Assembly: GCA_000004985.1 (NCBI GenBank)
Contig: GG738856.1
From: Naegleria gruberi
Lineage: Eukaryota
Length of the DNA stretch: 64,000 nt
Strand: one strand, 5' to 3'
Part shown: in pieces, positions 11,901 through 59,893 of the stretch
How positions within the stretch are numbered: the first letter of the stretch is position 1
How the letters are laid out: each line of letters starts with the position of its first letter
The notes under the pieces: model-generated
Database searches by the model: none
The model's input: only the letters and a program-made list of their open reading frames with translations
Told to the model about the DNA's origin: nothing
Made by a program: the position numbers and the translations under genes

Positions 11901-13862
11901 TCAGGTTGTGTTACCATTCTAATAGTTTGTATGGGTATTATTTTGATTCTCATTGAGTATAAACTAAATTCAGATAGAGCTTCACTTTCAATGAATAATC
12001 TCAGTATAATTAATAGTGTATTATATAGAGTTTCAAGTGTTAATTTCAGAGTTAATGAAATGATTCAAAGATCAAAATATAGTCAATTGACTACTTTTAA
12101 TCAATTGAGAGATTCAAGTGTAACGGATATTCAAGCTATTCAAAAATATTGGTATTCCATAATTTTGGGAAATGATAAATCTGGTTATCAATCAGCAGTG
12201 GTTGGAAAATATTCAGATATTGATGCTCAATTGAGTAATACATGTAATGATACTATTGAAATGAATTTTGCAAACACTACTAATGATAACTTATGTTTTG
12301 GATTGAATGATTTCATTACTGAATTCATTTCTAGAGCTACTGAATTGAATGAAGAAGCTTTTAAACTATCTGATTCGACAAGTGACTTGACAAGAAGATA
12401 TATTGATAGACTTTTCTATCTTTCTCAAGTATTGACTCAACAATTATTAGGATTTGTATCTAAATTTGTTGCTCATGAAAAAACTGCTCAAACTTACATT
12501 ACAGCAACTTCAATTTCTGTTACAATTATTGTAATCATTGTAATGGGAGTATTGTGTTTCAATTCTTTACTTAGTTTTTGGAAGGAACGATTCTGCTTGA
12601 GAATGCTATTGAATTATCTTAATATGGAAGTGATTGAAAACACTTTCCTATTGAAGGAATATGTCATGTCCAATTCTGTTTCATTTTCAAATACTACAAC
12701 AAAAATTATGGGAAAGCTCAATAAGATTCATTCAGAGGATAGCTCAACATGTGGTGATGAATCCATTCTAATGGTCAAAACAGTACTCAATGGAGGTGTC
12801 GATGCAAGTATTCTTTGTAATAGAGAAGGAAGTATTACAATATTTAATAATGCCGCTGAGGAAATGTTTGGTTATGCAAGAGCTGATGTTTTAGGTGATG
12901 CAATTCAAACTCTATTCACAGAAGAATATTCATCTCGATTGACCAAATTAATGAGTTCAGAATCAACATGTAAAGGTGATACCTTCGAAGCTATTGGATT
13001 ACGCAAGAACAAGTCAACCTTCAACTCAAAAGTCAGTGTTTCAGTCACAACCTACGATAAGAAACCCATGTTAATTGCCTTTATTAGAGATGTAACTCCT
13101 GAAAAGAAACTAAATTTGTTAATTTGTGAAGAAAAAAAGAAGAGTGAAGATTTATTATTGAACATTCTGCCACAAGCAATGGCTTCACGATTGAAGAATG
13201 GTGAGACGAATCTGTACGAAAAATTCAATGATATTAGTGTATTTTTTAGTGATATGGTTGGTTTTACATCGATGAGTTCTGGAATGCAACCAAGTGAGCT
13301 AGTTCAAATGCTCAACTCAATTGTGCAGGGTTATGACAAGTTGACAGAAGTTCATGGAATTGACAAGATTAAAACCATTGGTGATGCTTATTTTTGTGTT
13401 GGTGGACTTCAGGCAAGCAAAACTTCTGATCATCCAGAAAAGATGTTGGCATTTTCAATTGACATTATGTCATTTTTAAGAAGAACTAATGCTTCCACTA
13501 ACAAACCAGTTAATATTAGAGCAGGAATTCACACAGGTGAAGCAGTAGCTGGCGTAATTGGATTTAAAAAGTTTGCCTATGATTTGTGGGGAGATACTAT
13601 TAACACAGCTTCAAGAATGGAGTCAACCGGAGTTCCAGGAAGAATTCAAATTTCCAGAACAACCTATGAAAGAGTTTACGATTTGGGTTTTGAATTTGAA
13701 GAGAGAGAACAGGAAGTGAAAGGAAAAGGAAAAATGAAATGTTACTTGTTATCGAGTAAACATCATGAAAATCCAATGAATTTTCAAGATGATGATGTGA
13801 ATATTAGAACATTTCAGAGTACAGAGTTTTTGAGTTTGAAAGAACATCACGATTGTAAATAA
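8916..13862 (+). CDS. Receptor-type class III adenylyl cyclase with multiple TM segments, a TPR-like region and a PAS domain. Two exons, modelled as join(8916..9468,9604..13862).
   Basis: Track ORFs 8916..9473 (TM-rich) and 9606..13862 join through a 135-nt intron (GTATTA donor at 9469, TTTCAG acceptor at 9603). The leftover G plus AT gives GAT, which runs in frame into ATGACTTCC. The PAS-like segment is SILCNREGSITIFNNAAEEMFGYARADVLGDAIQTLF. The cyclase domain has every catalytic residue: FSDMVGFTSMSS, IKTIGDAYFCVGG, RAGIHTGEAVAGVIG, and KFAYDLWGDTINTASRMESTG. The Lys/Asp specificity pair predicts adenylyl-cyclase specificity. Confidence 0.7.
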
Positions 13863-15586: not shown

Positions 15587-18001
15587 TTATTGTAAATCCT
15601 TCTCTTGTTCAGAGTGGAGGGCACGAATGAAATCTTCTTTCAATATTTGTGAAACATCACTAATTAGAAAATTTTCTTTCGTCCTTAGTGATACTCGTGG
15701 AGCAATTATTGAGACTCGAGTGAGAAGAAATAAATTCAAACGTTCAATAACTTGCTCGACAGTGTCATTCTGTGATATGTCAATTAAAACAGAAACACGA
15801 GAACCTTCCAATTTGATTTTGATTGTATGAATTTGAATTTTCTCTGTGGAAACCTTGACTGGTGTTTGATGCTGCATAGGTGGTGAATCGTTATAATATA
15901 TCAAAGTCATCTCTAGAGGAGAAAAGTTGTCAGGATAGAGAGGTCTTAACTCAATAGGAAATTCAGGAGTTTTCATTTGGTTATTAAAAACTTGTCTAAT
16001 TCTGAAATATTCTTCATTGGCTTCACTTGCATATTTGTTCTGATTACATTTTAGAAAGTAAGAAATTCGCAGTTCGTGCGCAGGTTCAAAATTTGGTTCA
16101 CTTTGCAATACTCTATCAATGTAACCAAGTACCTTTTCAGTGTGTTTCAACTTTGCATGAATGGAAGCTATGAATATTAAAATTGTAGAATTATTGGAAT
16201 AGTTTTTCAATAATTGCTCAGCATACGAAAGACCATTCTCATATTCATTGAAAATAACTGATAATTGAGAGGCAATCATACTCAAAACATCTGATTCCTC
16301 AAAATGGTCCAGCATTTGCTTGAAAATTTTCTTGGCTTTTTCAATCTCTCCAATTTCAGCATAGTACTGAACTAAATAAACATAGATTACCAAGCAATTG
16401 GGTTCCAATTCTCTTGCTTTTAGAAAATCTGGGAATGCTTTAAGCTTTTCTTCTTTTGTTTTACCAACTTGATAAATAATTATTCCTCTTTTCAAGTAAT
16501 AATGAGCTAAATCATCTAAACTGTTCCCATATTTTTCCAATATTTTAGTGTATTCAGCAATAAGGATGAATGTTGAGCCCATTTGCTCCAAAATACCCAA
16601 TTTGGCATTAATGACAGGAATGGAGAAATGTGATTTCAAGGAATTATCCAAACATTGTAGAGCTTGCTTAGTGTTACCCTTGTAGAGATGTAAGAATCCC
16701 TTCAATTGCTCCAACACATGACCACTGTTCGGATCTTGGTGTGTATTGAATTTTCTTGAGAGAAATTCCAAAGACTCAAGCAGTGTTAATGCCTTGGAGA
16801 TGTTTGGTAACTTTCCTCCATAAACTCTCTCCCAAACATGTATATCATCTCTTGATAAAAACATGGCCAAAAGCAAGCCAACACAGTATTTGATTCTAAT
16901 TTCAACAGCATCATCAATAGATAATTTCATATAATATTTGTCAAGTATTTCTATTGAATCTTCAATACTATTGGCATTCAAATGAGAAAGTATTCTATTC
17001 ATTTCTAAAACTCCTGTAAATTCTCTATCACCTATTATTTGGAGATTGTTGCATATGATTAATCTAAGATTATTAATGGTTAATATTTCCATTGCATTCA
17101 ACGATGATAATCTCTCCTTCTTATCATATGTTAGAAAGGATAATAATAGTAGCTCAAAGAATTGGTCAACCTCCCTCGTAGAGATTTCATTGATGAATTT
17201 TGCTTGAAACACTTCACTCCATGTATTCTCAATGGTTGCTTGTGTATTTTCGAGTTTTAAATTTAGAAATCGAAAATCACATTCATCTACAATATCCTTA
17301 AAACTAATTGTTGACTCGGGGAAGAGTATTTTGAAAAGTACAACACCCATACTCCAGCAATCGACTTTGTAATCATAGAGTCTATGTTTAATTGATTCAG
17401 GTGGTAAATATTCAAATGTTCCCCTATGTGTTTTCTTGGTGTTTTCAGTTTGTAAGGTTTCTCCAAAATCAGCCAATGCAATCTCAATAAATGTTTCATT
17501 TTCTTCATCAAATGATTTGACAAGAATGTTTGAAAGTTTGATATCACAATGAACAAGATTATGTTTGTGTGAAATATTGACAGCAATACATAATTGTGTC
17601 ATGATTTGACCAATTAGAAAATCAGTCAATCTCTTTCCTCTTGATGTGAAATATCTTTCAATAAATGTTTCCAAATCTCCATACTTGTAAAATGGCATTA
17701 CAATCCCAATATTGGAATGATGATTAATGTATTCCAAACTCTCTACCAAATATTCACATACAATACTCTTTCTCAAATTAAATATCTTCAATTCCTTTTC
17801 AATAATGAATTCTCTTTCCTCTTCTTCTAATAAATTAATAATTTTCAATGCAATTTCATGGTTTGAACAACGATCAAAGCATCGATATACAACTCCGTAA
17901 CCTCCTTCTCCAATAAACAGCGGATTCAAAAACCTGTCACAAAAAGAAGAAGGGAATGCATAAGGTTGACGTGACATTTTTTTGTAATGTGACACTGTCA
18001 T
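15587..18001 (-). CDS. Ser/Thr protein kinase (non-RD, HCD catalytic loop) fused to TPR/Sel1-like repeats and a C-terminal beta-grasp-like segment.
   Basis: An 804 aa ORF. Kinase motifs are GEGGYGVVY, the Lys in EIALKII, HCDIKLSNILV, DFGET and LPPE. The repeats are helical TPR-like units (e.g. YYAEIGEIEKAKKIFKQMLD). The C-terminal segment is KIKLEGSRVSVLIDISQNDTVEQVIERLN. Confidence 0.75.
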   Translation of the reverse strand: MTVSHYKKMSRQPYAFPSSFCDRFLNPLFIGEGGYGVVYRCFDRCSNHEIALKIINLLEEEEREFIIEKELKIFNLRKSIVCEYLVESLEYINHHSNIGIVMPFYKYGDLETFIERYFTSRGKRLTDFLIGQIMTQLCIAVNISHKHNLVHCDIKLSNILVKSFDEENETFIEIALADFGETLQTENTKKTHRGTFEYLPPESIKHRLYDYKVDCWSMGVVLFKILFPESTISFKDIVDECDFRFLNLKLENTQATIENTWSEVFQAKFINEISTREVDQFFELLLLSFLTYDKKERLSSLNAMEILTINNLRLIICNNLQIIGDREFTGVLEMNRILSHLNANSIEDSIEILDKYYMKLSIDDAVEIRIKYCVGLLLAMFLSRDDIHVWERVYGGKLPNISKALTLLESLEFLSRKFNTHQDPNSGHVLEQLKGFLHLYKGNTKQALQCLDNSLKSHFSIPVINAKLGILEQMGSTFILIAEYTKILEKYGNSLDDLAHYYLKRGIIIYQVGKTKEEKLKAFPDFLKARELEPNCLVIYVYLVQYYAEIGEIEKAKKIFKQMLDHFEESDVLSMIASQLSVIFNEYENGLSYAEQLLKNYSNNSTILIFIASIHAKLKHTEKVLGYIDRVLQSEPNFEPAHELRISYFLKCNQNKYASEANEEYFRIRQVFNNQMKTPEFPIELRPLYPDNFSPLEMTLIYYNDSPPMQHQTPVKVSTEKIQIHTIKIKLEGSRVSVLIDISQNDTVEQVIERLNLFLLTRVSIIAPRVSLRTKENFLISDVSQILKEDFIRALHSEQEKDLQ
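17456..17710. repeat. Arm A of a roughly 255-bp near-identical inverted repeat, lying in the kinase core of the minus-strand kinase gene.
   Basis: By eye, the reverse complement of this segment matches 18321..18575 at about 97% identity. The flanking sequence of the two genes has diverged. Confidence 0.7.
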
Positions 18002-18032
18002 TCTGAAAAAGAATCCAAAAAAATCTGGTCAA

Positions 18033-20519
18033 ATGATCAGTCAAACTCAACTTCCCTCATGTTTTGGCAGTCGTTTTTCCAATCCTACACCAGTTGGAAA
18101 AGGAGCATATGGCACCACCTACTCATGTATTGATACACAAAATGATGATCAACAAATAATTGCTTTAAAAGTGATGCAACCAAGTGAAGGGACTGGTGAT
18201 ATTGCACTTGTAGAGAGAGAAGAAGAAATTTTCACAGCCATGAAGAATGTTCAGTGTGAATATATTGCCAAGAGTATGGAATTTCTAAATTATTTCGAAA
18301 GTGATGGTAGTGGTGGTTACATTGGAATTGTAATGCCATTTTACAAGTTTGGAGATTTGGAAACATTTATTGAAAGATATTTCACATCAAGAGGAAAGAG
18401 ATTGACTGATTTTCTAATTGGTCAAATCATGACACAATTATGTATTGCTGTCAATTTATCACACAAACATAATCTTGTTCATTGTGATATCAAACTTTCA
18501 AACATTCTTGTCAAATCATTTGATGAAGAAAATGAAACATTTATTGAGATTGCATTGGCTGACTTTGGAGAAACCTTTCGAACTGATCACACAACCAATA
18601 CAGATAAAAAGGGAACAGATGACTACTTACCACCAGAGGCCTTTGATGGCAAGTACGGATTCAAGATTGATTGCTGTAGTATGGGTGTTGTCCTTTTCAA
18701 ATTGCTTTGTCCACCAACTGATGTATCTATTAGAAACTATTTGGGAGAATGTCAAACTAAATACAAACACAAACAGCGTAACATTTTCTTTAGCCATTAT
18801 TGGTCAAAGAAGTTGGCGAAATACATGTCTGGTATTGAATATCTCAAAGATCAACCATTACTACTTTCAATGGTGAATGGATTTCTAACTTACGACAAGG
18901 AAAGTAGACTCACCATATTGAATGCTCTCGATCTATGTTGCATGATTATTATGATGCACATACATGGACAGAATAATAGTGTAAACTTAGACAATTTGGA
19001 GAATCCTTCACCTGTTTTGATACTATATGATCAATTATCATTGATTTCAGATTTCAATAATGGTTCAATGGAATTGTTATCCAAATATTACAATGAAACG
19101 AAGCAAGGAAATAGTTTAGGTATTGCATACATGGTAGGATTAATCTTTTGTAGCAGTCTATTGAAAAGAGATTTCAGAATTTGGGAATTTCAATTTAATT
19201 TACAAACACCCATTACCGATACAGCAACATTGGACAAAATGATACAAGATCTTGATCAACTATCACTGAAAATTAAGACCAATGAGCCATACTTGGGCTT
19301 TATATTTGAACAATTACATGCCATTTCACTAATGAACAAGAAAATGCCTGAAAAATCTTTACAAAGATTGGAAAACTCTACAAATTCATTCTTCACATTG
19401 GCATGCCAAAAAAAAAAGTTACTACTTGTAGAATTATTGAATGGAATGACTTATTCGTTGGTAGATGAATATTCCAAGCTAATCAAACTTTATGGTGACA
19501 AGAGTATGCTCTCTGGATACTTTTATTACAAAAGGGGTGTAATGTTATTCACCCTTTCTAATGATCATCAAAATGGTATAGCTGACTTGATACATGCAAG
19601 GAATTTATCACCAAATAGTTTGGGATTATATGCAATTATGGTAAACTGCTTTTTAACTATTGGCAGTATTGAAAATGCAAAACAAGTGTTTGAGCAAATG
19701 TTGTTATTGTCTGAGCACTTTGAGATTAATAGGTTAAACTTTATTGCAATGTTTTTATCCAATTGTTTAGGTTATTTGGATAAAGCATTGGAATATGGTG
19801 AAAAACTTACTAGTCAAGAACTGTATAGCAAGGACCCTGTATTACTTCTCTTTTTATCCAGAATCTGTAGTAATAGAGGCGATAGCTCAATGGAATTGGG
19901 TTATATAGAAACGGCATTGGATATAGATCCACATTGTTATCAAGCTCACCAAATGAAAATCCTATTTTATAGAGCAGCTTTGGATTTCACAGCAGAAAAA
20001 GAAGCTTTGCTCAAGTATACAGCTCTGAAAAGGCAAAACCTTTTGCATACCTCTGAATTTCCCATTGAACTTTTACCACTATTACCAGATGGCTCACCTC
20101 TTCCAATATTATTACTAAATGAACCTGAAAAGGATGTTACAAGAATTAAGGAAATTACTTTTAAGGAAGCTGAGAAGACTGTTCAACAATTTGAAACCAT
20201 TCAACCATCACTAATGCAAGAACCTACCACAAATGATTCAATTCTTTCACCAGAAATCATCATGCAAATCAAAGTGAAATTCAAAGGGAAAAACAATGCT
20301 GTTTTCATTGATATTTTGAAAACAGATACAGACATTCGTCAAGTATTAGATCGCTTGAATAAGATTGGAAACGAAAAGAGTACAGCATATGTTAATAGAG
20401 TGGCATTTTCAATAGTGAAAGACGATGATTGTATTTTAATTACATCAATTCATCAATTATCTAAATATGATGAAGTAGTGGCTCTCACAAGTGATGAAGA
20501 AAAAGAGTTTTGGGCGTAA
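18033..20519 (+). CDS. Ser/Thr protein kinase with TPR/Sel1-like repeats. It is a paralog of the divergently transcribed gene at 15587..18001.
   Basis: An 828 aa ORF. Motifs are GKGAYGTTY, IIALKVM, HCDIKLSNILV, DFGET and LPPE. About 85 aa of the kinase core are nearly identical to the neighbouring gene. Confidence 0.75.
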   Translation: MISQTQLPSCFGSRFSNPTPVGKGAYGTTYSCIDTQNDDQQIIALKVMQPSEGTGDIALVEREEEIFTAMKNVQCEYIAKSMEFLNYFESDGSGGYIGIVMPFYKFGDLETFIERYFTSRGKRLTDFLIGQIMTQLCIAVNLSHKHNLVHCDIKLSNILVKSFDEENETFIEIALADFGETFRTDHTTNTDKKGTDDYLPPEAFDGKYGFKIDCCSMGVVLFKLLCPPTDVSIRNYLGECQTKYKHKQRNIFFSHYWSKKLAKYMSGIEYLKDQPLLLSMVNGFLTYDKESRLTILNALDLCCMIIMMHIHGQNNSVNLDNLENPSPVLILYDQLSLISDFNNGSMELLSKYYNETKQGNSLGIAYMVGLIFCSSLLKRDFRIWEFQFNLQTPITDTATLDKMIQDLDQLSLKIKTNEPYLGFIFEQLHAISLMNKKMPEKSLQRLENSTNSFFTLACQKKKLLLVELLNGMTYSLVDEYSKLIKLYGDKSMLSGYFYYKRGVMLFTLSNDHQNGIADLIHARNLSPNSLGLYAIMVNCFLTIGSIENAKQVFEQMLLLSEHFEINRLNFIAMFLSNCLGYLDKALEYGEKLTSQELYSKDPVLLLFLSRICSNRGDSSMELGYIETALDIDPHCYQAHQMKILFYRAALDFTAEKEALLKYTALKRQNLLHTSEFPIELLPLLPDGSPLPILLLNEPEKDVTRIKEITFKEAEKTVQQFETIQPSLMQEPTTNDSILSPEIIMQIKVKFKGKNNAVFIDILKTDTDIRQVLDRLNKIGNEKSTAYVNRVAFSIVKDDDCILITSIHQLSKYDEVVALTSDEEKEFWA
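18321..18575. repeat. Arm B of the inverted repeat, in the kinase core of the plus-strand kinase gene.
   Basis: See arm A. The shared segment encodes IGIVMPFYK(Y/F)GDLETFIERYFTSRGKRLTDFLIGQIMTQLCIAVN(I/L)SHKHNLVHCDIKLSNILVKSFDEENETFIEIALADFGET. Confidence 0.7.
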
Positions 20520-34838: not shown

Positions 34839-35603
34839 ATGTACTTTACTAAACCTGAAGATTATGGCTTACTCGAGAGTGGTCCAACTATGAACTATTG
34901 GATTTGGGTACCAACATTCCTTACTATTGCCTCCATGATGATCTCTGTCATTTCACAATATTTCTCCTATTTGTGGCCTGCTGTAGAATATAAGAAACAA
35001 TTCAAGAATAAGACAACTCACTATGTGTTCCTTTCATATGCTGTTAACCATACACTTTCTGCTATACTGACCACATTCACAATTGCCTATGCTAGATACT
35101 ATGGTACTTGTTATGAATCTAACATTTTTGAGATGGGTGTTCTCGAGTTGATCAAGTATATCCTTACTGTGATATTATGTGCTGTTCAACAGGTGGTCAT
35201 CTATGACTTTTTAATTTACCTTTTCCACAGAAGTTGTCATGTTAATAAGTGGATGTATATTCATATTCACAAATGGCATCACGAGAATAATACTCCACGA
35301 GGAATCTGTGATGGAATTTATGGTGATGCCTTTGAGGGAACTTTGGTGGCTTACTTTGCTGTTGGTCAAATGATGTTTTTCTCATTGCCAGTCAGTTCAA
35401 TTTGTCTCTTCTTATTGTATATTAGTTTCTTTGTCCAATTGAATCACAGTGGAAGAAAGGTTAAGATTCCATATTTCTATACTTTCAAATCCCATGCCAT
35501 TCACCATCGTCATTTCAAATATAATTTCTCTGAACACATTCCTTTGTGGGATTATTTGTTTGGAACATTGAAGTTGGACGAAATCAGTGACAATCAATTC
35601 TAA
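34839..35603 (+). CDS. Fatty acid hydroxylase / sterol desaturase superfamily protein with three His boxes. Copy 1 of a tandem pair.
   Basis: A 254 aa ORF with 4 predicted TM helices. His boxes are HRSCH (HX3H), HKWHH (HX2HH) and HAIHHRH (HX2HH). Confidence 0.75.
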   Translation: MYFTKPEDYGLLESGPTMNYWIWVPTFLTIASMMISVISQYFSYLWPAVEYKKQFKNKTTHYVFLSYAVNHTLSAILTTFTIAYARYYGTCYESNIFEMGVLELIKYILTVILCAVQQVVIYDFLIYLFHRSCHVNKWMYIHIHKWHHENNTPRGICDGIYGDAFEGTLVAYFAVGQMMFFSLPVSSICLFLLYISFFVQLNHSGRKVKIPYFYTFKSHAIHHRHFKYNFSEHIPLWDYLFGTLKLDEISDNQF

Positions 35604-36393: not shown

Positions 36394-37158
36394 ATGTACT
36401 TTACGAAACCTGAAGATTATGGCTTGTTAGAAAGTGGTCCAACTATGAACTATTGGATTTGGGTACCAACAGTGCTCTTCCTGGCTTCCATGGCTGTTTC
36501 CGTTCTTTCACAATGGTTTTCCTATTTGTGGCCTGCTGTAGAATATAAGAAACAATTCAAGAATAAGACAACTCATTACGTTCTCCTTTCATATGCTGTG
36601 AATCACTTCTTGAGCGCTCTGCTGACAACTTTTACAATTGCCTATGCTAGATACTATGGTTCTTGTTATGAATCCAATATATTCGAAATGAGTTTCTTGG
36701 AAATGTCCAAGTACATTATCACAGTTCTGTGGTGTGTTGCCCAGCAGGTACTTATCTATGACTTTTTAATCTATGTCTTCCATAGAAGTTGCCACGTTAA
36801 TAAGTGGATGTATATTCATATTCACAAGTGGCATCACGAGAATAATACACCAAGAGGAATCTGTGATGGAATTTATGGTGATGCCTTTGAGGGAACTTTG
36901 GTGGCTTACTTTGCTGTTGGTCAAATGATGTTCTTCTCATTGCCAGTCAGTTCAATTTGTCTCTTCTTATTGTATATTAGTTTCTTTGTTCAATTGAATC
37001 ACAGTGGAAGAAAGGTTAAGATTCCATATTTCTACTCGTTCAAGGCACACGCTGTCCATCATCGTCATTTCAAATATAATTTCTCTGAACACATTCCTTT
37101 GTGGGATTATTTGTTTGGTACCTTAAGATTGAGTGAAATCAGTGATGACCAATTCTAA
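36394..37158 (+). CDS. Fatty acid hydroxylase / sterol desaturase superfamily protein. Copy 2, a tandem paralog.
   Basis: A 254 aa ORF about 85% identical to copy 1 at protein level. The His boxes are the same. The 5' leaders are also similar (..aactaatct..aaatgtacttta..). Confidence 0.75.
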   Translation: MYFTKPEDYGLLESGPTMNYWIWVPTVLFLASMAVSVLSQWFSYLWPAVEYKKQFKNKTTHYVLLSYAVNHFLSALLTTFTIAYARYYGSCYESNIFEMSFLEMSKYIITVLWCVAQQVLIYDFLIYVFHRSCHVNKWMYIHIHKWHHENNTPRGICDGIYGDAFEGTLVAYFAVGQMMFFSLPVSSICLFLLYISFFVQLNHSGRKVKIPYFYSFKAHAVHHRHFKYNFSEHIPLWDYLFGTLRLSEISDDQF

Positions 37159-37304: not shown

Positions 37305-39470
37305 TTACAATTCTTCAAAGCCAGCAAGTTGATTTGAGACAACTCTACTGACAGTGTCAGTGATACCTTCACCTCCAGAAACCAATTCTCTGATACCGCT
37401 ACTTTGTGCCCATTGATCTCCTAATCTATTGATATTTTCACTTGATTGTTCCAAAAGATGATTCAATCTTTGCAATCCATCAACCATGTAATTTTGCAAC
37501 ATGTCTTGTAATTGATCCTTAAGTCTTCTTCTAACATTATTCTGAATGTAACCAGATAAAACTCTCAACAGAATTTCGTGATGTTCTGCATGAGTGAATT
37601 TCAATTTCAAGTCATCAATATCGACAGTGATAGAGTTGTATTTGAACCATTCAGTATCACCAAGTTCATTAGTGGATGTATCAACATTAATCTTCAAGTG
37701 AATCATAACACCATCATCTCCAGTATCAATATTCAATAAACCTTCATCAGAGAGTTGTGGGAAAGAGAATCTCTTGAACCAAAATTGAACATCCTTAAAG
37801 TGGAATACTATTCCACTCAAGTGCAATACAAGGGTTGATTGAGTTCCTTGGAGACTATCAGCAAGCTTATCTTCACTATAATCAATGTCTGTAACAGAGT
37901 GACCAGACATTTTAACATGTGATGGTAACAAGTCAGATGCATTCATTCTCAAGCCCTTCAGTTCATATTCAACATTCTCATCAACATAATGAATATCCAA
38001 ATCTGTAAAAGATGATACAGTTTCCTTAATCATAGACACCATCATAACCTTCAATTCATTCAGANNNNNNNNNNNNNNNNNNNNNNNNNNNNNNNNNNNN
38101 NNNNNNNNNNNNNNNNNNNNNNNNNNNNNNNNNNNNNNNNNNNNNNNNNNNNNNNNNNNNNNNNNNNNNNNNNNNNNNNNNNNNNNNNNNNNNNNNNNNN
38201 NNNNNNNNNNNNNNNNNNNNNNNNNNNNNNNNAGTATCTACGAGTGTCCTTCTCAACTTGATCTAACAATTTGGAAAGCTCCTTGTCATTGCTGAATGCC
38301 TTATAGATATCTTGCAATGATTGTTCCATATCCTTGATGATCTTTTCATTACCAACCCATTGGATTAACAACTTTTCACCATTCTCTTTCATATTGATAA
38401 AGTACTTGTCATTTTGCATTTCCTTAACCAAATCGTTAACGTTACTCTCAATGTTATCATTGAAAATGAACTTGAGTTGATCGAACATGTTGGAGAATCC
38501 CAAAACTGCCTTTCTGTAAGATCTATTTGAAGAGAATTCCTTGATAAGTTCACTAAATCTATCATAAATTTGGTCTTCTAACTTTTCTTGCTTTAATTCA
38601 GCAGATTTGACATCTGACTTGGTAGGTTCTACTGATGCAGCAACAACCTTAGTCTTTTGCTTCTTGGAAGAAGATTCAACACTGGATGATTCTAAGAATG
38701 GCTTTTCCCAATCACTCTTATTCTTTGGAGTATCTTCAGTAACATCCATTTGATCCTTAACCTTCTCTTTCAACTCATCATCATCATCATCAAGATTATT
38801 GACAATTCTTTGAATGGCAGCTCTTGAGACCTTCGTTAGCTTGTACATGAATGTTAGTGAGGCTCTTATTTGACAATACTCTCAAATAGTTCAATGTATC
38901 AACCATTAAAAGTCTAAATGAGTTGGATCTAAACAGTTCAAAAATAAAATTGGAAAAGTTCTGAACTGATTCATAGAAAGACTTGGTTTCTTGATTGAGT
39001 TGGTCATTCACATCACTTGTGGTATCCTTAACTACATGTACAACTTTATCAGAGTACTTGTCAATGAACATGTTGGTATTGTAAATGAATTGTTGCAATA
39101 CCTGATCCTTATTCTTCTCTTCAATTAATTGTTTAACAATGTCTAACAGGTGAATAGCACGTTCTTGAATATTTTGACTTGATGTGACATATTGTGATGA
39201 TTTGTCAACAATATCTTTCACCTGTTCAACACCACTCAAAAGTTGTTCATTAGAAGGAATTTCACCCTTGGTAAGAGACTTTAATCCTTCAATGGTTTGA
39301 TCAATTGCCTTATTGTCAACTGTGACATTAACAATATTCTCTTGGATGTTTTCCTTTACCTCTTGAACAGTATCAGCAATTTTAGGAGTAATAGTTGTAG
39401 ATGAAGATGGATTCTTGATTTCTACCATTTCCAATGTTTTGTTGTTTTTTAATTGTTTTAATTTCTTCAC
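37305..39470 (-). CDS. Hypothetical multi-exon gene interrupted by the assembly gap. It joins three track ORFs into one mostly helical / coiled-coil protein with a C-terminal beta-rich domain.
   Basis: ORFs 38796..39470, 38060..38848 and 37305..38054 are colinear on the minus strand. The first two overlap in different frames. A 40-nt GTATTG..ACAAG segment near 38850..38890 would rejoin them as a short intron. The N-run 38065..38232 sits between the second and third. Confidence 0.35.
38065..38232. other. Assembly gap, a run of N.
   Basis: 168 consecutive N characters in the sequence. Confidence 0.99.
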
Positions 39471-48514: not shown

Positions 48515-48913
48515 TTCTGATAATGTTGTAAAAACCTTTCTTTGTAACAATAAGAAAATCTGTTGTTTCTTCTAGGTTGCGATTCTACTAGAAATTGACT
48601 CAATCAAGAGAGTGTTAGACAAGAAAATTGTGGTCAACAGCCCTCTAACTAATTAATTGGCTTAATCTTTTTGTTAACCCTCAGCACACTAAATTCATAA
48701 TTCAACAAGTGTTACATGACTCTGATTGAACTCCGATTGTTCTAGGAAAATCAAAACTCACAATAATTCAACCATCTTCATCTAATACATTCTCTTTCCC
48801 AATTAGAAAGCCATTTAGAAAAAAAATGTTTGCAAGTCGGTCAATCCACAATGATGGTTCGTTTTTTAATGCATTTTCTTCCGATTTAATATTCAATCAA
48901 TATTATTGAATAT

Positions 48914-48950
48914 GTTCAATATATTCAATATATTCAATATATCAATATAT
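48914..48950. repeat. Microsatellite-like (TTCAATATA)n, about 4 units, just upstream of the GTPase gene.
   Basis: The sequence reads gttcaatatattcaatatattcaatatatcaatatat. Confidence 0.6.
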
Positions 48951-48994
48951 TAAATCATGATGAAATATAATTATCGGAAATCACAATATTAGAT

Positions 48995-49695
48995 ATGATC
49001 AGCAATGAAGTGGAAATGCTATTGAATGATCCTGATTTTAAAATCAAAATAGTAATGGTTGGATCTCCTAATAGTGGAAAAACATCATTAGCTACTCGAT
49101 TTGCTAAATGTGAATTTGATATGAATAAATCGTATGAACATTCTACAGATACGAGTATTCAGTTGGCTAAAATTGATGTCAATGATAAACAAGTTACAAC
49201 TGAAATTTGGGATTGTATCAGTGAATTGGGAGTTGCCCATGAGGAAAAGAGAAGATTACAATATTTGAATACTATGGCTTTTATAATTTGTGTGTCACTG
49301 ACTGATGAGTCAACTTTGGAGGATGCTCTTCATTATGTAAGTTTTTTTATTGGAAACCCAAGTTTCAAAACATGAATGGAAATTGGATTATCTCAATTTT
49401 AATTATATAGTGGATTCCTGAAATTAAGAAATATTCACCTGATACACCAATTGTCTTATGTGGATCTAAACTTGATCTTGTTAAGAATGATTCTTCAATT
49501 GGAACACAAAATCAAAATAGGTATACTACTTATGAACACATGGTTCATCAAGCTAAAAGAAGTAAATGTAAAACCTATGTGGAAACAACGTGCATATCAG
49601 ATGTGACAGTTGTTCAATTATTTGCAACAGCAATCCAATGTGCCTTAGGTCTTTACAAGGACGATGACTCTTCCAAAAAATGCTCTCTCATGTAA
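48995..49695 (+). CDS. Ras-superfamily small GTPase, Rho-like, with an atypical G3 region and a C-terminal CaaX box. Two exons, modelled as join(48995..49336,49411..49695).
   Basis: Exon 1 encodes the P-loop GSPNSGKTS and ends ..DALHY. A 74-nt intron follows (GTAAGT at 49337, TTATATAG| ending at 49410, phase 0). Exon 2 encodes WIPEIKKYSPDTPIVLCGSKLDL (a Rho-family W.PEI motif; the G4-like motif is CGSKLD) and ends KKCSLM, which is a CaaX box. The canonical DTAGQE (G3) is replaced by IWDCISELG. Confidence 0.7.
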
Positions 49696-49849
49696 ATTTC
49701 ATAAATCAATTGTAATTAATTATCCTTCTCCAAACATTCCTTGAATATTCACTTGAAATGTAATTAAGAATTAAAAATCTCTCAATCAATTTAACCCTCA
49801 ATAAAAATTTACAAACAATTTTTTTTAAGCTAAAATTAGATTTAAAAAA

Positions 49850-52393
49850 ATGCTTGGACAACAACAATCGGATTCGGAACGTAAATTTCTCTCTCGTTTG
49901 ATCAGCTCGCAAAAACAATCACAACAATATGTTGATGAGGGATTGAAAGCTAAAGCAAGAGCCTTGATTCCTGTGGATCAAATTCATGAACGAGCACAAG
50001 AAAAATACAAGATGAAAAAGGAGAATGATCCAAACTCTAATCCATTGTTGGAACGTTTCATCATTCAAGAGTTATTAAATTGGTTTAAGAGTGATTTTTT
50101 CAAGTGGGTTAATAATCCTCCTTGTGATCATTGTCAAGCAACAAATACAAACGGAATGGGAGGAGTTGCTCCTAATGCTTCGGAACAACAAAATTTAGCT
50201 GGTATTGTTGAATTGTATTCATGTCCAAATTGTAGACAAACTACCAGATTTCCTCGATATAATTATGTTGGAAAATTATTGGAAACTAGAAGAGGAAGAT
50301 GTGGTGAGTGGGCTCAATGTTTCACTTTAATGGCCTCAGCTATGGGATATGAAGCAAGATATGTTCTTGATTGGACTGATCACGTTTGGACTGAGGTTTA
50401 TTTGGATGGATGGTGTCATGCTGATTCATGTGAAGGAACACTGGATTCACCAATGATGTATGAAGCTGGATGGCAAAAGAAACTCTCTTATATTATTGCT
50501 TTCTCTGCAGAGGAAGTAATTGATGTCACAAAAAGATATACTCAAAATTTCTATTCTGACGACTTCCAACAAAGAAGAAGAGCTCAAGGCATTAGTGAAC
50601 CTTGGTTAGAAAGCACATTGAAAAACATTAATGAGCAATTGCATGTATTTATGCCACCTTACAGATCTACCTTCCTTAAAAATAGACAAACAAAGGAAAA
50701 AGATCAAATTGAACAAAAGCAAAAATCCTCGTCTGACCTCACATTGGAAGAACAAAGAGGAAGAATATCCGGCTCTGAAGAGTGGAAGAAGTCTCGAGGA
50801 GAAACAGGCAAAACATCTTGTGATGACGATAGCTGTCCTGTTCCTCAATATAAGTTAGAGCAATCTGTTGTGGATAGCCTTAAGCTCTATACCAACAAGA
50901 TTGAAGTGAATAAGAAAACAAATTCTCTATCTTGTCTAGGAAATTGTAGAGTTTTGAATGATAATTCAATCATAATTACAGAAAACAAGACTTCTCAATG
51001 CGGTTCAATAGTGTTTAATGATCAGTTGGATGTGCGTGATATGGTTATTGAATTCTCGTTCCAACTTACAAAGAATGGAACTGGAGCCGATGGGTTTGCC
51101 CTGATTATGCACTCCAATGATAATGCTGCACAAATGGGAGCTCCTGGTAGTGGAATGGGATATGAAGGAATACCAAACTCTATTGCAATCGAATTTGATA
51201 CTTACCAAACCTTCGATAGAACAAGAGATCCAGATTCAAACCATATCTCTATCCAAACAAGATATGACAAACCAAACTCTGCACATCACGACTATTCTCT
51301 CAAATGTACAACAAGTCTTCCTATTACTCTTTCAGATGGAAAAATTCACAACTGTCAACTTCTTATCCAAGGAGGGAAATTATCTATTATTTTAGAGAAG
51401 GAATATTTGATACTGAAGGATGTATCTGTTGATTTTGAGAGAGTATTTGGAAAGGGAAAGAAATTTAGAATTGGCTTAACTGCTTCAACAGGTGGTTTAT
51501 CAGAAGAACACAAAATTGTAAATTGGTCCATCCTCACAAAAACAACTAGTACTTCATATGTTCTCTTTGACCAAGTGAACATTGCAGGTGTTGAGAAAAA
51601 ACTCAAGGAATTGATTTCTCGTGAACCTAGTCCTACAATTACAGATATACAAGTTCAATCGCTTTTGAATGTGAGTGGTTGGAAAATTACAGAAATTTCC
51701 TTAGTGAATTCTATCCTCAGACAATGGAAATTCGAAAACCTCTTCCCAATTATTGACTTGTTGCGTATTGCCATTGTAAACAACAAGACTGTCTCAGATA
51801 CATTCTCCAAGCTTTTCATACAGAATCAAAAGGACCATTTATTATTGAATATCTTTAACAAGACTAGTGAGGCAACAGTTGAAAATTCGTACGCCTACTG
51901 CCTTGTATCTCTTAGACTTATTAACAATCTCTTTAAGGAAAGGTTAGGTAGAGTCTATGTTAACAAGTTCACAGACAAAATCTTGGAACAGTTGACAGAA
52001 AGCAAAATTTTCACCTTACAACCAACCTCAAAACCTGCATATAGACAAACGTACGGTGCTCTCCTTCACAATCTCTCACTATTATTTGTAAATGAGCTTC
52101 CAGATGAAGAAATGATGGTTAGGTTATTCTCCACCTCCTTTGAAATGTTGGAAAAAGAGATTTCAAGAGAAGACTTTGATGAAAGTGCTTGTCAATATGC
52201 TATCAAATCGTTAACAATACTTCTCAAGGTTGATTCAAAGGAACAACCAACCGATGAAGAGGACAGTATCATGCATGGTCTTGCCTTAAGTATGGACATT
52301 CATAGTTTAGTGTTGAAATTGAAGACAAGAAACCTTGCCAATGTGGATTTGTGTTCTCTTCTCAACTCATTAGAAAAACAGTTTGGAAATTAA
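49850..52393 (+). CDS. PNG1: Peptide:N-glycanase (PNGase) with a transglutaminase-like core, fused to an L-type-lectin-like beta-sandwich domain and a C-terminal helical region.
   Basis: An 847 aa ORF. The PNGase core has the zinc-binding CDHC..CPNC and the catalytic Cys motif RRGRCGEWAQCFTLMASAMGYEARYVLDWTDHVWTEVY. The middle region is ADGFALIMHSNDNAAQMGAPGSGMGYEGIPNSIAIEFDTYQTF..DPDSNHISIQT, which matches the legume/L-type lectin pattern (ADG[LF]AF..GG.LG...N..VAVEFDT..N..DP..NHIGI). The C-terminal roughly 250 aa are helical. Confidence 0.8.
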   Translation: MLGQQQSDSERKFLSRLISSQKQSQQYVDEGLKAKARALIPVDQIHERAQEKYKMKKENDPNSNPLLERFIIQELLNWFKSDFFKWVNNPPCDHCQATNTNGMGGVAPNASEQQNLAGIVELYSCPNCRQTTRFPRYNYVGKLLETRRGRCGEWAQCFTLMASAMGYEARYVLDWTDHVWTEVYLDGWCHADSCEGTLDSPMMYEAGWQKKLSYIIAFSAEEVIDVTKRYTQNFYSDDFQQRRRAQGISEPWLESTLKNINEQLHVFMPPYRSTFLKNRQTKEKDQIEQKQKSSSDLTLEEQRGRISGSEEWKKSRGETGKTSCDDDSCPVPQYKLEQSVVDSLKLYTNKIEVNKKTNSLSCLGNCRVLNDNSIIITENKTSQCGSIVFNDQLDVRDMVIEFSFQLTKNGTGADGFALIMHSNDNAAQMGAPGSGMGYEGIPNSIAIEFDTYQTFDRTRDPDSNHISIQTRYDKPNSAHHDYSLKCTTSLPITLSDGKIHNCQLLIQGGKLSIILEKEYLILKDVSVDFERVFGKGKKFRIGLTASTGGLSEEHKIVNWSILTKTTSTSYVLFDQVNIAGVEKKLKELISREPSPTITDIQVQSLLNVSGWKITEISLVNSILRQWKFENLFPIIDLLRIAIVNNKTVSDTFSKLFIQNQKDHLLLNIFNKTSEATVENSYAYCLVSLRLINNLFKERLGRVYVNKFTDKILEQLTESKIFTLQPTSKPAYRQTYGALLHNLSLLFVNELPDEEMMVRLFSTSFEMLEKEISREDFDESACQYAIKSLTILLKVDSKEQPTDEEDSIMHGLALSMDIHSLVLKLKTRNLANVDLCSLLNSLEKQFGN

Positions 52394-58678: not shown

Positions 58679-59893
58679 ATGTTAACAATGCATCACTGTG
58701 TAGCACCAAAACTCGGTCGTTTGGTTTCCGATTCTAGAAATTCAATCAAATTGACATTCCGAACACTATCTCTTCTCCAACAACAACAACAACAAGGAAG
58801 AAGAAATTTTTCATCATCAATTTTGCTGAATAATAAGAGTTTTACTAATCAATTAATTATTCAAAAGATGGGTGCCATCACACCACAAATGAAAAACAAG
58901 ATGGCAAAAAAGACTAGAGTGAATAGGGAAAATCATGAATTAATTAGTGAAATGGATAATTTAGTATTGAAGGATGATTCACCTATTCTTGCTCAGTCGG
59001 ATGTTTTGAAAAAAGAATTGGTTGAATTTGTTGCAAATTCTCAAGTTAAAACAGGTTCCGAAATTATTGAACATACAGCCAATCGTCAACATTACTTTAC
59101 ACAACAAGAAATTGCCAAAATTCATGGCGTTTACAAGAATAGTGTGTTCTTCAAACATACTAAAATTAGTTTGGAAAAATACTTTTTAAATTATAATGTA
59201 CTTGTACACAAATCTAAGGAACAAAATGATTTATATTATATTGGACATCAATTATTGAAATATATACTTACTAAATATTTTAATGAAAACCTTTCGTTAG
59301 TTCAAGAATTGATGGCTGAAGGTAAAACTCTCAACATTATCAATGACAAGATTACAAAAGATTTCCAAATTAAGGAACATTTACTTGAATATTTCTTGAA
59401 TAATAATCAATTATTCTACATTTATATTCAACAAAATAACTTGAAGGAATTAGAGCCACTCTTAAAAGATATCAGTTTTACTTCGAACGATTTTATTAAC
59501 AAGTCTGCACACGAGAGAATATTCAAGGCGATTATTGGTAATATTTACATGAATATTGAATCTTTTGATATTATGATGAATCATGTTTTATATCCTTTCA
59601 TTGTTAAGGAATTTATACCTAGATTTACAGAGCTGACCGAAAGCAATCTAGCTCAAATTTCTACAAAGAAAGCGTTTGAGAAACAAATGACAATCGTTGA
59701 GCAATTTGAATACTTCCACATGAGACAATTTAAAACACTCCCAACCTATTCATCCTTAACAAACAGCTTTGAACAAACTCAAATGGTACAAATCTATTCC
59801 TCAGACCAACAACTTTTGTCAATTGGTTATGGAATTGATTACAAGACAGCTAAAGAAGATGCAGCAAGAAGAGCTATTTTACATTTTTGTTAA
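58679..59893 (+). CDS. Mitochondrial protein with a degenerate RNase III-like domain and a dsRBD-like C-terminus. Possibly mitoribosomal mL44 (Mrpl3-like).
   Basis: A 404 aa ORF. The N-terminus is presequence-like (MLTMHHCVAPKLGRLVSDSRNSIKLTFRTLS). The C-terminus (DYKTAKEDAARRAILHF) resembles the end of a dsRBD. The segment ERIFKAIIGNIY resembles the RNase III-like region of mL44. Confidence 0.35.
   Translation: MLTMHHCVAPKLGRLVSDSRNSIKLTFRTLSLLQQQQQQGRRNFSSSILLNNKSFTNQLIIQKMGAITPQMKNKMAKKTRVNRENHELISEMDNLVLKDDSPILAQSDVLKKELVEFVANSQVKTGSEIIEHTANRQHYFTQQEIAKIHGVYKNSVFFKHTKISLEKYFLNYNVLVHKSKEQNDLYYIGHQLLKYILTKYFNENLSLVQELMAEGKTLNIINDKITKDFQIKEHLLEYFLNNNQLFYIYIQQNNLKELEPLLKDISFTSNDFINKSAHERIFKAIIGNIYMNIESFDIMMNHVLYPFIVKEFIPRFTELTESNLAQISTKKAFEKQMTIVEQFEYFHMRQFKTLPTYSSLTNSFEQTQMVQIYSSDQQLLSIGYGIDYKTAKEDAARRAILHFC

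What the first reader, a model, noticed from the sequence alone, without database searches (positions are those of the whole stretch)
48995..49695. Atypical Rho-like GTPase missing the DxxGQ (G3) switch-II motif but keeping a CaaX box
The protein has a P-loop (GSPNSGKT), a Rho-family W.PEI motif, a C-terminal CSLM prenylation box, and a small insert-like region. The canonical DTAGQE is replaced by IWDCISELG, so there is no Gly or Gln to support GTP hydrolysis. The G4 N/TKxD motif is also altered (CGSKLD). This resembles constitutively GTP-bound or nucleotide-free atypical GTPases such as Rnd, RhoH and RhoBTB, which act as scaffolds rather than switches.
Basis: partly seen in the sequence, partly recalled or inferred. 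Interest (0 to 1): 0.5.

Follow-up and report, generated by a model that had tools for sequence, protein, structure and literature searches.

The report
Divergent Rho-type GTPase gene in Naegleria
This is a real, already catalogued Naegleria gruberi gene for a lipid-anchored Rho-family GTPase that lacks the residues normally needed to hydrolyse GTP, so it is probably an "always-on" protein like animal Rnd/RhoH, one of many divergent copies in a family of over 80 genes.

Summary
This is exactly XP_002679727.1 "small GTPase" of Naegleria gruberi NEG-M, an amoeboflagellate and not a fungus. Herman et al. 2021 already list it as a Rho-family "Rac", the 1:1 ortholog of N. fowleri Rac18.

No alternative splice or reading frame restores DxxGQ. 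Orthologs in N. fowleri, N. lovaniensis, Willaertia magna and three unnamed relatives share four features:
- no Gly at position 12 (Pro or Ser instead)
- no Gln at position 61 (E, D, I or K)
- a 2-residue insertion in switch II
- a CaaX box ending in M or Q

The residues that bind nucleotide and Mg are kept. dN/dS is about 0.13, so this is not a pseudogene.

The best reading is a farnesylated Rho protein that binds GTP but hydrolyses it poorly, convergent with Rnd/RhoH. This is inferred from sequence only. Loss of Gly60, the SKLD G4 motif and the TCI G5 motif are specific to the N. gruberi lineage.

The annotated start is probably wrong. A conserved 5' exon (48826-48856, MFASRSIHND) followed by a 136-nt intron precedes it.

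Interest is modest, because Naegleria has many Rho paralogs with degenerate G3 motifs.

The parts
48826..48856 (+). Proposed new first coding exon (MFASRSIHND plus 1 nt, phase 1). It is missing from the annotated model.
   Evidence: Joining it to 48993 gives an in-frame MFASRSIHNDDMISNEV.... The same peptide begins the annotated N. fowleri ortholog XP_044568557.1 (MFASRSMHED), Willaertia P0006 (MFVSKSINND, no intron there) and L006 (MFSSRSIHG). The start sits in an AAAAAAATG context like the orthologs; the annotated ATG at 48995 does not.
48857..48992 (+). Proposed 136-nt phase-1 intron (GTTCGT...TATTAG) containing a 9-nt tandem repeat
   Evidence: It has the same position and phase as the first intron in N. 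fowleri, N. lovaniensis and L006. If it is not spliced, the reading frame hits stop codons. TCAATATAT x6.6 lies at 48897-48955, and its copy number differs in L008. No RNA evidence is available.
48993..49336 (+). Main 5' coding exon (annotated CDS starts at ATG 48995). It holds the N-terminal helix, G1, switch I, G3/switch II and beta4-alpha3.
   Evidence: It is identical to the ORF fragment P0001.
49061..49084 (+). G1 / P-loop GSPNSGKT. GxxxxGKT is intact, and Ras position 12 is Pro.
   Evidence: Position 12 is P or S in all orthologs, never G.
49142..49153 (+). Switch I STDT, the candidate Mg-binding Ser/Thr (T35 equivalent)
   Evidence: Ser50 aligns to the T35 column. Thr53 is invariant in the orthogroup.
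49208..49231 (+). Degenerate G3 WDCISELG. Asp57 is kept, T58C, A59I, G60S, Q61E, then a 2-residue insertion.
   Evidence: No D..G[QHTNSE] occurs in any frame of 48700-49800.
49337..49410 (+). 74-nt phase-0 intron between ..LHY and WIPEI
   Evidence: An intron occupies the same site in N. fowleri, N. lovaniensis, Willaertia, L002 and L003.
49411..49695 (+). 3' coding exon including the stop codon: WIPEI, G4, insert, G5, CaaX
49465..49476 (+). G4 SKLD (Lys and Asp kept; Ser replaces Thr/Asn)
   Evidence: Orthologs outside the N. gruberi lineage have TKxD.
49480..49539 (+). Insert-length segment at the position of the Rho insert
   Evidence: It aligns to the Rac1 insert with only a 2-residue gap. 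AlphaFold2 predicts a low-confidence loop here, not a helix, in both the N. gruberi and N. fowleri proteins.
49582..49596 (+). Altered G5 ETTCI (canonical is E[CV]SA[KL])
   Evidence: N. fowleri, L003 and Willaertia have EVSAKE. Only N. gruberi and its close relative L002 have TTCI/TTCL.
49681..49692 (+). CaaX box CSLM preceded by KK
   Evidence: It is conserved as CSLM, CLLM, CLIM or CLIQ in all full-length orthologs.

Best explanation
The locus encodes a functional, membrane-anchored (probably farnesylated) Rho-family small GTPase. It belongs to an orthogroup found in Naegleria, Willaertia and three unnamed metagenomic relatives (N. fowleri "Rac18").

The protein most likely still binds guanine nucleotide and Mg. 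It lacks Gly12 and Gln61, the two residues used for intrinsic and GAP-stimulated hydrolysis. The N. gruberi lineage also lacks Gly60, the switch-II residue that senses the gamma-phosphate. It would therefore stay mostly GTP-bound and work as a constitutively "on" effector binder or scaffold, controlled by expression, turnover or localisation rather than by a GEF/GAP cycle. This is the same logic as animal Rnd and RhoH, reached independently.

Shown here: gene structure, Rho-family fold and sequence, the substitution pattern, its conservation in orthologs, and purifying selection.

Inferred: nucleotide binding, hydrolysis deficiency, farnesylation, and the mode of regulation.
For: - Identity and gene model.
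- Rho family: Pfam Ras at 1.4e-20. The top 60 PDB sequence hits are all Rac, Rho or RhoE. The AlphaFold2 model has pLDDT 89 and its top 50 Foldseek hits are all Rho family. It scores 30 or more bits higher against nearly all N. gruberi Rac sequences than against Ras sequences. Published Table S8 lists it as Rac.
- Signature conserved in orthologs: position 12 is P or S, position 61 is E, D, I or K, and a +2 insertion in switch II occurs in no other sequence of the 67-sequence alignment.
- Binding residues kept: G10, G15, K16, T/S17, F28, a switch-I Ser/Thr, W56, D57, K117, D119.
- CaaX ending in M or Q is kept in all full-length orthologs.
- Purifying selection: omega 0.13 against the close relative L002 at dS 0.34, while introns and intergenic DNA are full of indels. 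Omega is 0.11 between N. fowleri and N. lovaniensis.
- Absence of Gly12 plus switch-II changes is the stated basis for GTPase deficiency in Rnd and RhoH (PMC13236570).
Against: - There is no biochemical evidence at all.
- Pro12 is the one position-12 substitution that leaves H-Ras non-transforming and catalytically competent (PMC6662853, PMC6813200). From memory, Glu at position 61 has been reported to support hydrolysis in Ras, although Der et al., as cited in PMC6813200, found it reduced.
- Rap-type GTPases work without Gln61 because their GAP supplies the catalytic residue.
- In N. gruberi, G60S and the TCI G5 motif could weaken nucleotide binding or sensing.
- The N. lovaniensis ortholog appears truncated, which hints that the gene is dispensable.
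- Expression of the N. gruberi gene was not checked.
Confidence: 0.55

Rival explanations
1. It is still a cycling switch. It hydrolyses GTP by a non-canonical route, either through intrinsic catalysis helped by Glu77 with Pro12 tolerated, or through a dedicated GAP that supplies the catalytic residue in trans, as RapGAP does for Rap.
For: - The nucleotide-binding residues are conserved.
- G12P H-Ras is catalytically competent and non-transforming (PMC6662853, PMC6813200).
- Position 61 is acidic in three lineages: E in N. gruberi and L003, D in Willaertia.
Against: - Position 61 is not conserved in the orthogroup. It is Ile in N. fowleri and N. lovaniensis and Lys in L006, which argues against a conserved catalytic role.
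- Gly60 is Ser in three lineages.
- No partner GAP has been identified.
Confidence: 0.2
2. In the N. gruberi lineage the protein has become a nucleotide-independent pseudoGTPase. It would be a prenylated scaffold whose G domain no longer binds or senses nucleotide.
For: N. gruberi and L002 have three extra departures that are absent from N. fowleri, L003 and, except for the first, Willaertia: G60S, TKxD changed to SKLD, and SAK changed to TCI/TCL.
Against: - The P-loop GxxxxGKT, Phe28, Asp57, and the Lys and Asp of G4 are all intact and under purifying selection.
- There is no rate acceleration relative to N. fowleri (26 versus 23 unique changes, not significant).
- From my own knowledge, a T-C-x type G5 occurs in nucleotide-binding Arf proteins.
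Confidence: 0.15
3. It is a decaying or non-functional paralog in a massively expanded family, and the odd motifs are simply degeneration.
For: - N. gruberi has more than 80 Rho genes, several with degenerate G3 motifs.
- The N. lovaniensis ortholog lacks its C-terminal third.
- The gene evolves fast. N. fowleri and L003 are 53% identical here, while a neighbouring protein is 85% identical.
Against: - The ORF, splice sites and CaaX box are intact.
- Omega is 0.13 at dS 0.34 against L002, with non-coding flanks full of indels.
- Orthologs are retained across the Naegleria-Willaertia split, with family-specific motifs conserved ([ED]KR[KR]xQY, the KKC-aaX tail, the MFxSRSI N-terminus).
Confidence: 0.05

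Closest known systems
Naegleria Rho-family expansion: N. fowleri Rac18 (NfowleriV212_g5951.t1; presumably the same gene as XP_044568557.1/FDP41_007759), listed in Herman et al. 2021, BMC Biol 19:142, Table S8
   Same: This is the gene itself. XP_002679727.1 is listed there as a Rho-family "Rac" and as the 1:1 ortholog of Rac18. My spliced N. fowleri model equals XP_044568557.1 exactly.
   Different: In what I read of the paper and its supplement, the gene is only catalogued. The loss of Gly12, Gly60 and Gln61, the switch-II insertion and the conserved N-terminal exon are not discussed, and the N. gruberi model was left uncorrected (blank sequence cell, no asterisk).
Rnd1-3 (RhoE) atypical Rho GTPases of animals
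   Same: Both have a non-Gly residue at position 12 and a non-Gln residue at position 61. Both are single-domain Rho-fold proteins. RhoE/Rnd3 is the 2nd-best sequence hit and the 2nd-best structural hit. From my own knowledge, Rnd proteins carry an N-terminal extension and a farnesyl-type CaaM box, and this orthogroup has both.
   Different: There is no specific relationship: Rac1 64.5 bits versus RhoE 61.5. Of the N. gruberi sequences I compared, the closest is the canonical Rac XP_002668590 at 81 bits, so the similarity is convergent. Rnd keeps Gly60 and SAL; this protein has Ser60 and TCI, plus a 2-residue switch-II insertion.
RhoH
   Same: RhoH lacks Gly12 and has an altered G3/switch II, and is regarded as GTPase-deficient and controlled by expression level (PMC13236570).
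   Different: From my own knowledge, RhoH is restricted to vertebrates. From memory, it keeps DTAG and has Asn at position 61. There is no orthology.
Canonical Naegleria Rac (for example XP_002668590.1, the ortholog of N. fowleri Rac16)
   Same: It is the best-scoring N. gruberi paralog among those tested (81 bits). It shares VEINDKxV, PDxPIILCGTKxDL and a CaaX box.
   Different: It has the canonical GDGAVGKT, DTAGQE and SAK motifs, no switch-II insertion, and a shorter beta5-alpha4 connection.

Membership tests
Ras-superfamily small GTPase (Pfam PF00071) | Profile score above the curated cut-off and a G-domain fold | tested here: met
   73.9 bits against 21.6. AlphaFold2 model with pLDDT 89.3 and the six-strand/five-helix G-domain order.
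Ras-superfamily small GTPase (Pfam PF00071) | G1 P-loop GxxxxGK[ST] | tested here: met
   GSPNSGKT at 49061-49084. G10, G15, K16 and T17 are invariant in the orthogroup.
Ras-superfamily small GTPase (Pfam PF00071) | G3 DxxG(Q) | tested here: not met
   The sequence is WDCISE: Asp is kept, Gly60 is Ser, Gln61 is Glu. N. fowleri, N. lovaniensis and L003 orthologs keep DxxG, but none has Gln.
Ras-superfamily small GTPase (Pfam PF00071) | G4 [NT]KxD and G5 SA[KL] | tested here: inconclusive
   G4 is SKLD, with Lys and Asp kept and Ser in place of Thr/Asn. G5 is TCI instead of SAK. Orthologs outside the N. gruberi lineage have TKxD and SAK.
Rho family | Closest sequence and structure relatives are Rho, Rac or Cdc42 rather than Ras, Rab, Arf or Ran | tested here: met
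   The top 60 PDB sequence hits and the top 50 Foldseek hits are all Rho family. Scores against N. gruberi Rac sequences are 36-81 bits, against Ras sequences 24 or fewer. Published classification as Rac.
Rho family | Rho insert helix between beta5 and alpha4 | tested here: inconclusive
   A segment of Rac1-like length is present; the alignment to Rac1 crosses the insert with a 2-residue gap. AlphaFold2 predicts a low-confidence loop (pLDDT about 54-58), not a helix, in both N. gruberi and N. fowleri.
Rho family | C-terminal CaaX prenylation box | tested here: met
   CSLM, conserved as CLLM, CLIM or CLIQ in orthologs. Actual prenylation was not tested.
Rnd / RhoH type GTPase-deficient atypical Rho | Non-Gly at position 12 and non-Gln at position 61 | tested here: met
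   Pro25 and Glu77 in the 208-aa numbering. All orthologs have P or S at position 12 and E, D, I or K at position 61. The criterion is as stated in PMC13236570.
Rnd / RhoH type GTPase-deficient atypical Rho | Orthology (specific sequence affinity) to animal Rnd or RhoH | tested here: not met
   RhoE scores 61.5 bits and Rac1 64.5 bits. A canonical Naegleria Rac scores higher, at 81 bits. The orthogroup was found only in Naegleria, Willaertia and unnamed metagenomic relatives.
Rnd / RhoH type GTPase-deficient atypical Rho | Constitutive GTP loading with negligible intrinsic and GAP-stimulated hydrolysis | not testable with these tools
   This requires recombinant protein and nucleotide assays.
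RhoBTB | Rho domain fused to tandem BTB domains | tested here: not met
   The protein is 208-219 aa with a single domain. Pfam finds no BTB domain.
Nucleotide-free pseudoGTPase | Loss of the residues that bind phosphate, Mg and guanine (P-loop Lys/Thr, Asp57, Lys and Asp of G4) | tested here: not met
   All are retained and invariant across the orthogroup.

The most novel reading that the evidence does not exclude
The amoeboflagellate lineage that includes Naegleria and Willaertia independently evolved its own class of farnesylated, GTPase-dead "always-on" Rho proteins. The class is marked by a unique 2-residue switch-II insertion, a conserved MFxSRSI N-terminal peptide and a non-helical insert. 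The N. gruberi lineage is moving further, towards a nucleotide-insensitive pseudoGTPase (G60S, TCI G5). This would be a case outside the animal lineage of the Rnd/RhoH solution arising by convergence.
Probability: 0.4. Interest if true: 0.4.

Novelty: new member of a known kind. Interest (0 to 1): 0.25.

Why it matters
If the protein is confirmed as GTPase-deficient, it would show that "always-on" Rho proteins regulated by abundance rather than by GEFs and GAPs arose more than once in eukaryotes. It would also give a handle on how Naegleria uses its very large Rho repertoire for amoeboid crawling and phagocytosis. Naegleria is a model for actin-based motility, and N. fowleri is a brain pathogen.

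There is also a practical result: the N. gruberi reference gene model appears to lack its first exon.

The gene is already catalogued, several sister paralogs are equally degenerate, and no function is known, so the finding is incremental.

Tried and rejected
- **Alternative splicing restoring DxxGQ.** I enumerated every in-frame GT..AG intron and scanned all six frames of 48700-49800 for D..G[QHTNSE]. None was found, and G3 lies inside a continuous exon.
- **Fungal origin.** Rejected. Neighbouring ORFs are exact matches to N. gruberi NEG-M proteins.
- **Unannotated gene.** The first word-index search returned only an ORF fragment, which suggested the gene was unannotated. The exact look-up showed that the 208-aa model is XP_002679727.1.
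- **Pseudogene.** Rejected on dN/dS and ortholog conservation.
- **Faster evolution in N. gruberi than in N. fowleri.** A Tajima relative-rate test was not significant.
- **Positional orthology of the N. gruberi copy.** N. fowleri, N. lovaniensis, L003 and Willaertia share an upstream neighbour family, but none of those neighbours is found in this window. Orthology therefore rests on sequence and on Herman et al.
- **Tool limits.** The alignment-based word search missed the N. fowleri/N. lovaniensis cluster (one search compared). The afdb50 fold library was unavailable.
- **L008.** This short contig turned out to be a near-identical N. gruberi-like fragment with a chimeric or erroneous end. 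It was useful only for repeat copy number.

Full report
**What is there**

The window is Naegleria gruberi NEG-M DNA. The ORFs at 49850-52390, 15590-18001 and 58679-59890 are exact matches to XP_002679728.1 (peptide N-glycanase), XP_002679852.1 and XP_002679729.1. The window is 32% G+C and gene-dense.

Joining 48995-49336 to 49411-49695 across a 74-nt GTAAGT...TATAG intron gives an open 208-aa protein. This protein is exactly the annotated XP_002679727.1 / EFC46983.1 / D2V849 "small GTPase". The guess that the host is a fungus is wrong.

**Is the odd G3 an artefact?**

No. The WDCISELG stretch (49208-49231) lies in the middle of a continuous exon. No in-frame alternative intron restores a DxxGQ motif. 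No D..G[QHTNSE] exists in any of the six frames of 48700-49800. Orthologs from other species show the same departure (below).

**What family is it?**

- Pfam Ras scores 73.9 bits against a cut-off of 21.6.
- The 60 best PDB sequence matches are all Rac, Rho or RhoE, at about 1e-16.
- An AlphaFold2 model built on a 67-sequence alignment is confident (pLDDT 89.3, pTM 0.87). Its 50 best Foldseek matches in the PDB are all Rho-family proteins: RhoA, Rnd3, RhoB, Cdc42, Rac1 and Rnd1.
- Against N. gruberi sequences printed in a published table, it scores 36-81 bits to Rac paralogs and 24 bits or fewer to Ras paralogs. The best match is the canonical Rac XP_002668590.1, at 81 bits.
- Herman et al. 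2021 (PMC8296547), Table S8, already lists XP_002679727.1 as a Rho-family "Rac" and as the ortholog of N. fowleri Rac18. Their supplementary text reports more than 80 Rho genes in N. gruberi and nearly 50 in N. fowleri.

**The Rho insert**

The alignment to Rac1 runs through the Rho-insert region with only a 2-residue gap, so a segment of the right length is present. However, AlphaFold2 predicts a low-confidence loop there rather than a helix, in both the N. gruberi and N. fowleri proteins. I therefore score that defining feature as inconclusive.

**The orthogroup**

An exhaustive HMMER search with exon 1 found only a handful of close relatives among 1.8 billion representative proteins. Tracing them gave the following:

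| Source | Protein or locus | Notes |
|---|---|---|
| Willaertia magna | KAL9641611.1 and KAL9643207.1, 221 aa | two copies |
| N. fowleri | XP_044568557.1, 215 aa | my hand-spliced model from locus L004 matches it exactly |
| N. lovaniensis | XP_044555451.1 | appears truncated, see below |
| Close N. gruberi relative | L002 | 92% aa identity, with the same PNGase gene downstream |
| Unnamed metagenomic relatives | L003, L006 | |

All members share these features:
- a P-loop G[ST][PS]xxGK[ST], in which Ras position 12 is Pro or Ser and never Gly
- conserved Phe28, a switch-I Ser/Thr, and Trp56-Asp57
- E, D, I or K at position 61, never Gln
- a 2-residue insertion in switch II followed by [ED]KR[KR]xQY; this insertion occurs in none of the other 57 GTPases in the alignment
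- W[IL]PE
- a KK-CaaX tail ending in M or Q

Gly60 is kept in N. fowleri, N. lovaniensis and L003. It is Ser in N. gruberi, L002, Willaertia and L006.

The SKLD G4 and the TCI/TCL G5 occur only in N. gruberi and L002. The other members have canonical TKxD and SAK.

**Is the gene functional?**

- Against L002, dS is 0.34, dN is 0.044 and omega is 0.13 over 143 codons, while the intron and the 3' intergenic spacer are full of indels.
- N. fowleri against N. lovaniensis gives omega 0.11 over the first 149 codons.
- N. gruberi is not evolving faster than N. fowleri (26 versus 23 unique changes).

This rules out a pseudogene in N. gruberi.

Two caveats remain. The gene as a whole evolves fast: N. 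fowleri and L003 are 53% identical here, while a flanking protein is 85% identical. In addition, the N. lovaniensis copy appears to have lost about 220 nt covering everything after GTKMDLV.

**How it most likely works**

The residues that hold the phosphates, Mg and guanine are conserved. The residues used for hydrolysis (Gly12, Gln61) are gone in the entire orthogroup.

A 2026 review gives exactly this as the reason that Rnd proteins and RhoH are GTPase-deficient, constitutively GTP-bound and regulated by abundance (PMC13236570). By established CaaX rules, a final Met or Gln directs farnesylation, and from my own knowledge Rnd proteins are farnesylated in the same way.

My best reading (confidence 0.55) is therefore a farnesylated, GTP-binding, hydrolysis-deficient Rho protein that acts as a constitutively active binder, convergent with Rnd and RhoH.

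It is not a member of those subfamilies, because it has no specific affinity to them. It is not RhoBTB, because it has no BTB domain.

Hydrolysis deficiency is an inference. Pro at position 12 is the one substitution that leaves H-Ras catalytically competent (PMC6662853; PMC6813200), and some GTPases without Gln61 use a GAP-supplied residue. Against a conserved alternative catalytic residue, position 61 varies freely among the orthologs. A nucleotide-free pseudoGTPase state is possible for the N. gruberi lineage but is not favoured, because the binding residues remain constrained.

**Gene-model correction**

A conserved N-terminal peptide precedes the annotated start. 48826-48856 encodes MFASRSIHND. 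It is followed by a phase-1 GT..AG intron of 136 nt (48857-48992) that joins in frame to 48993, giving a 219-aa protein.

Supporting evidence:
- The same peptide begins the annotated N. fowleri protein, which has an intron at the same site and phase. It also begins the L006 fragment, and the Willaertia protein, which has no intron there.
- The upstream ATG has the A-rich context seen at the orthologs' starts. The annotated ATG does not.
- The intron holds a 9-nt tandem repeat whose copy number differs in another N. gruberi-like contig.

No RNA evidence was available.

**Novelty**

The gene is annotated and catalogued, and the kind of protein (atypical GTPase-deficient Rho) is known. The same published table shows other N. 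gruberi Rac paralogs with equally degenerate G3 motifs, for example ELWELSSLKNYD, LWDLPCRDGYD and LWDLGCHPGFE.

What appears to be new is:
- recognition of a conserved Naegleria-Willaertia orthogroup with the Rnd/RhoH-like signature
- its unique switch-II insertion
- the missing first exon in the reference model

I rate this a new member of a known kind, of modest interest.

Noticed in passing
window 48826-48992: The reference model XP_002679727.1 seems to lack its first coding exon (MFASRSIHND) and a 136-nt intron. The peptide is conserved at the N-terminus of the N. fowleri, Willaertia and L006 relatives.
   Followed up: yes
L007 4001-4700 (N. lovaniensis, PYSW02000002.1): Relative to N. fowleri, the N. 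lovaniensis ortholog has a deletion of about 220 nt that removes the insert, G5 and the CaaX box. It also has an extra intron-like insertion inside the G4 motif. This is either a recent pseudogenisation or an assembly error.
   Followed up: partly
L002 134-173; L004 4867-4989; L006 ~829 onward: Intron positions change quickly in this small gene. L002 has an extra 40-nt intron just before the conserved one. N. fowleri has a 123-nt intron that splits the P-loop (GSPSTG|KT) and is absent from N. lovaniensis and N. gruberi. L006 has an intron right after switch II.
   Followed up: partly
window 49850-52393: The neighbouring peptide N-glycanase combines a transglutaminase/Rad4 core with an L-type (legume-like) lectin domain and a C-terminal PUL domain. 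From my own knowledge, this differs from the PUB...PAW layout of animal PNGase.
   Followed up: no
window 34839-35603 and 36394-37158: Two tandem 254-aa paralogs, 89% identical in protein and 85% in DNA, with histidine-box motifs (HRSCH, HKWHH, HHRH) typical of membrane fatty-acid hydroxylase/desaturase-type enzymes. I did not run them against Pfam.
   Followed up: no
window 38065-38232: A run of 168 N (an assembly gap) lies inside or next to the ORFs at 37305-38848 on the minus strand.
   Followed up: no
window 9606-13862; 15587-20519; 20586-22937: A large PAS-domain adenylate/guanylate cyclase, two divergently oriented protein kinases (one with a TPR tail), and an NHL-repeat plus BTB protein. 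From my own knowledge, cyclase expansion is typical of Naegleria signalling genes.
   Followed up: no
L003 1080-2555 vs L004 5706-7118: The downstream TPR-like neighbour is 85% identical between L003 and N. fowleri, while the Rho-like protein between the same two genomes is only 53% identical. The GTPase therefore evolves much faster than its neighbour.
   Followed up: partly
window 48897-48955; L008: The 9-nt tandem repeat TCAATATAT (about 6.6 copies) has one copy fewer in a near-identical N. gruberi-like contig that sits in an unrelated NCBI assembly (GCA_006365155.1), which looks like contamination of that assembly.
   Followed up: partly
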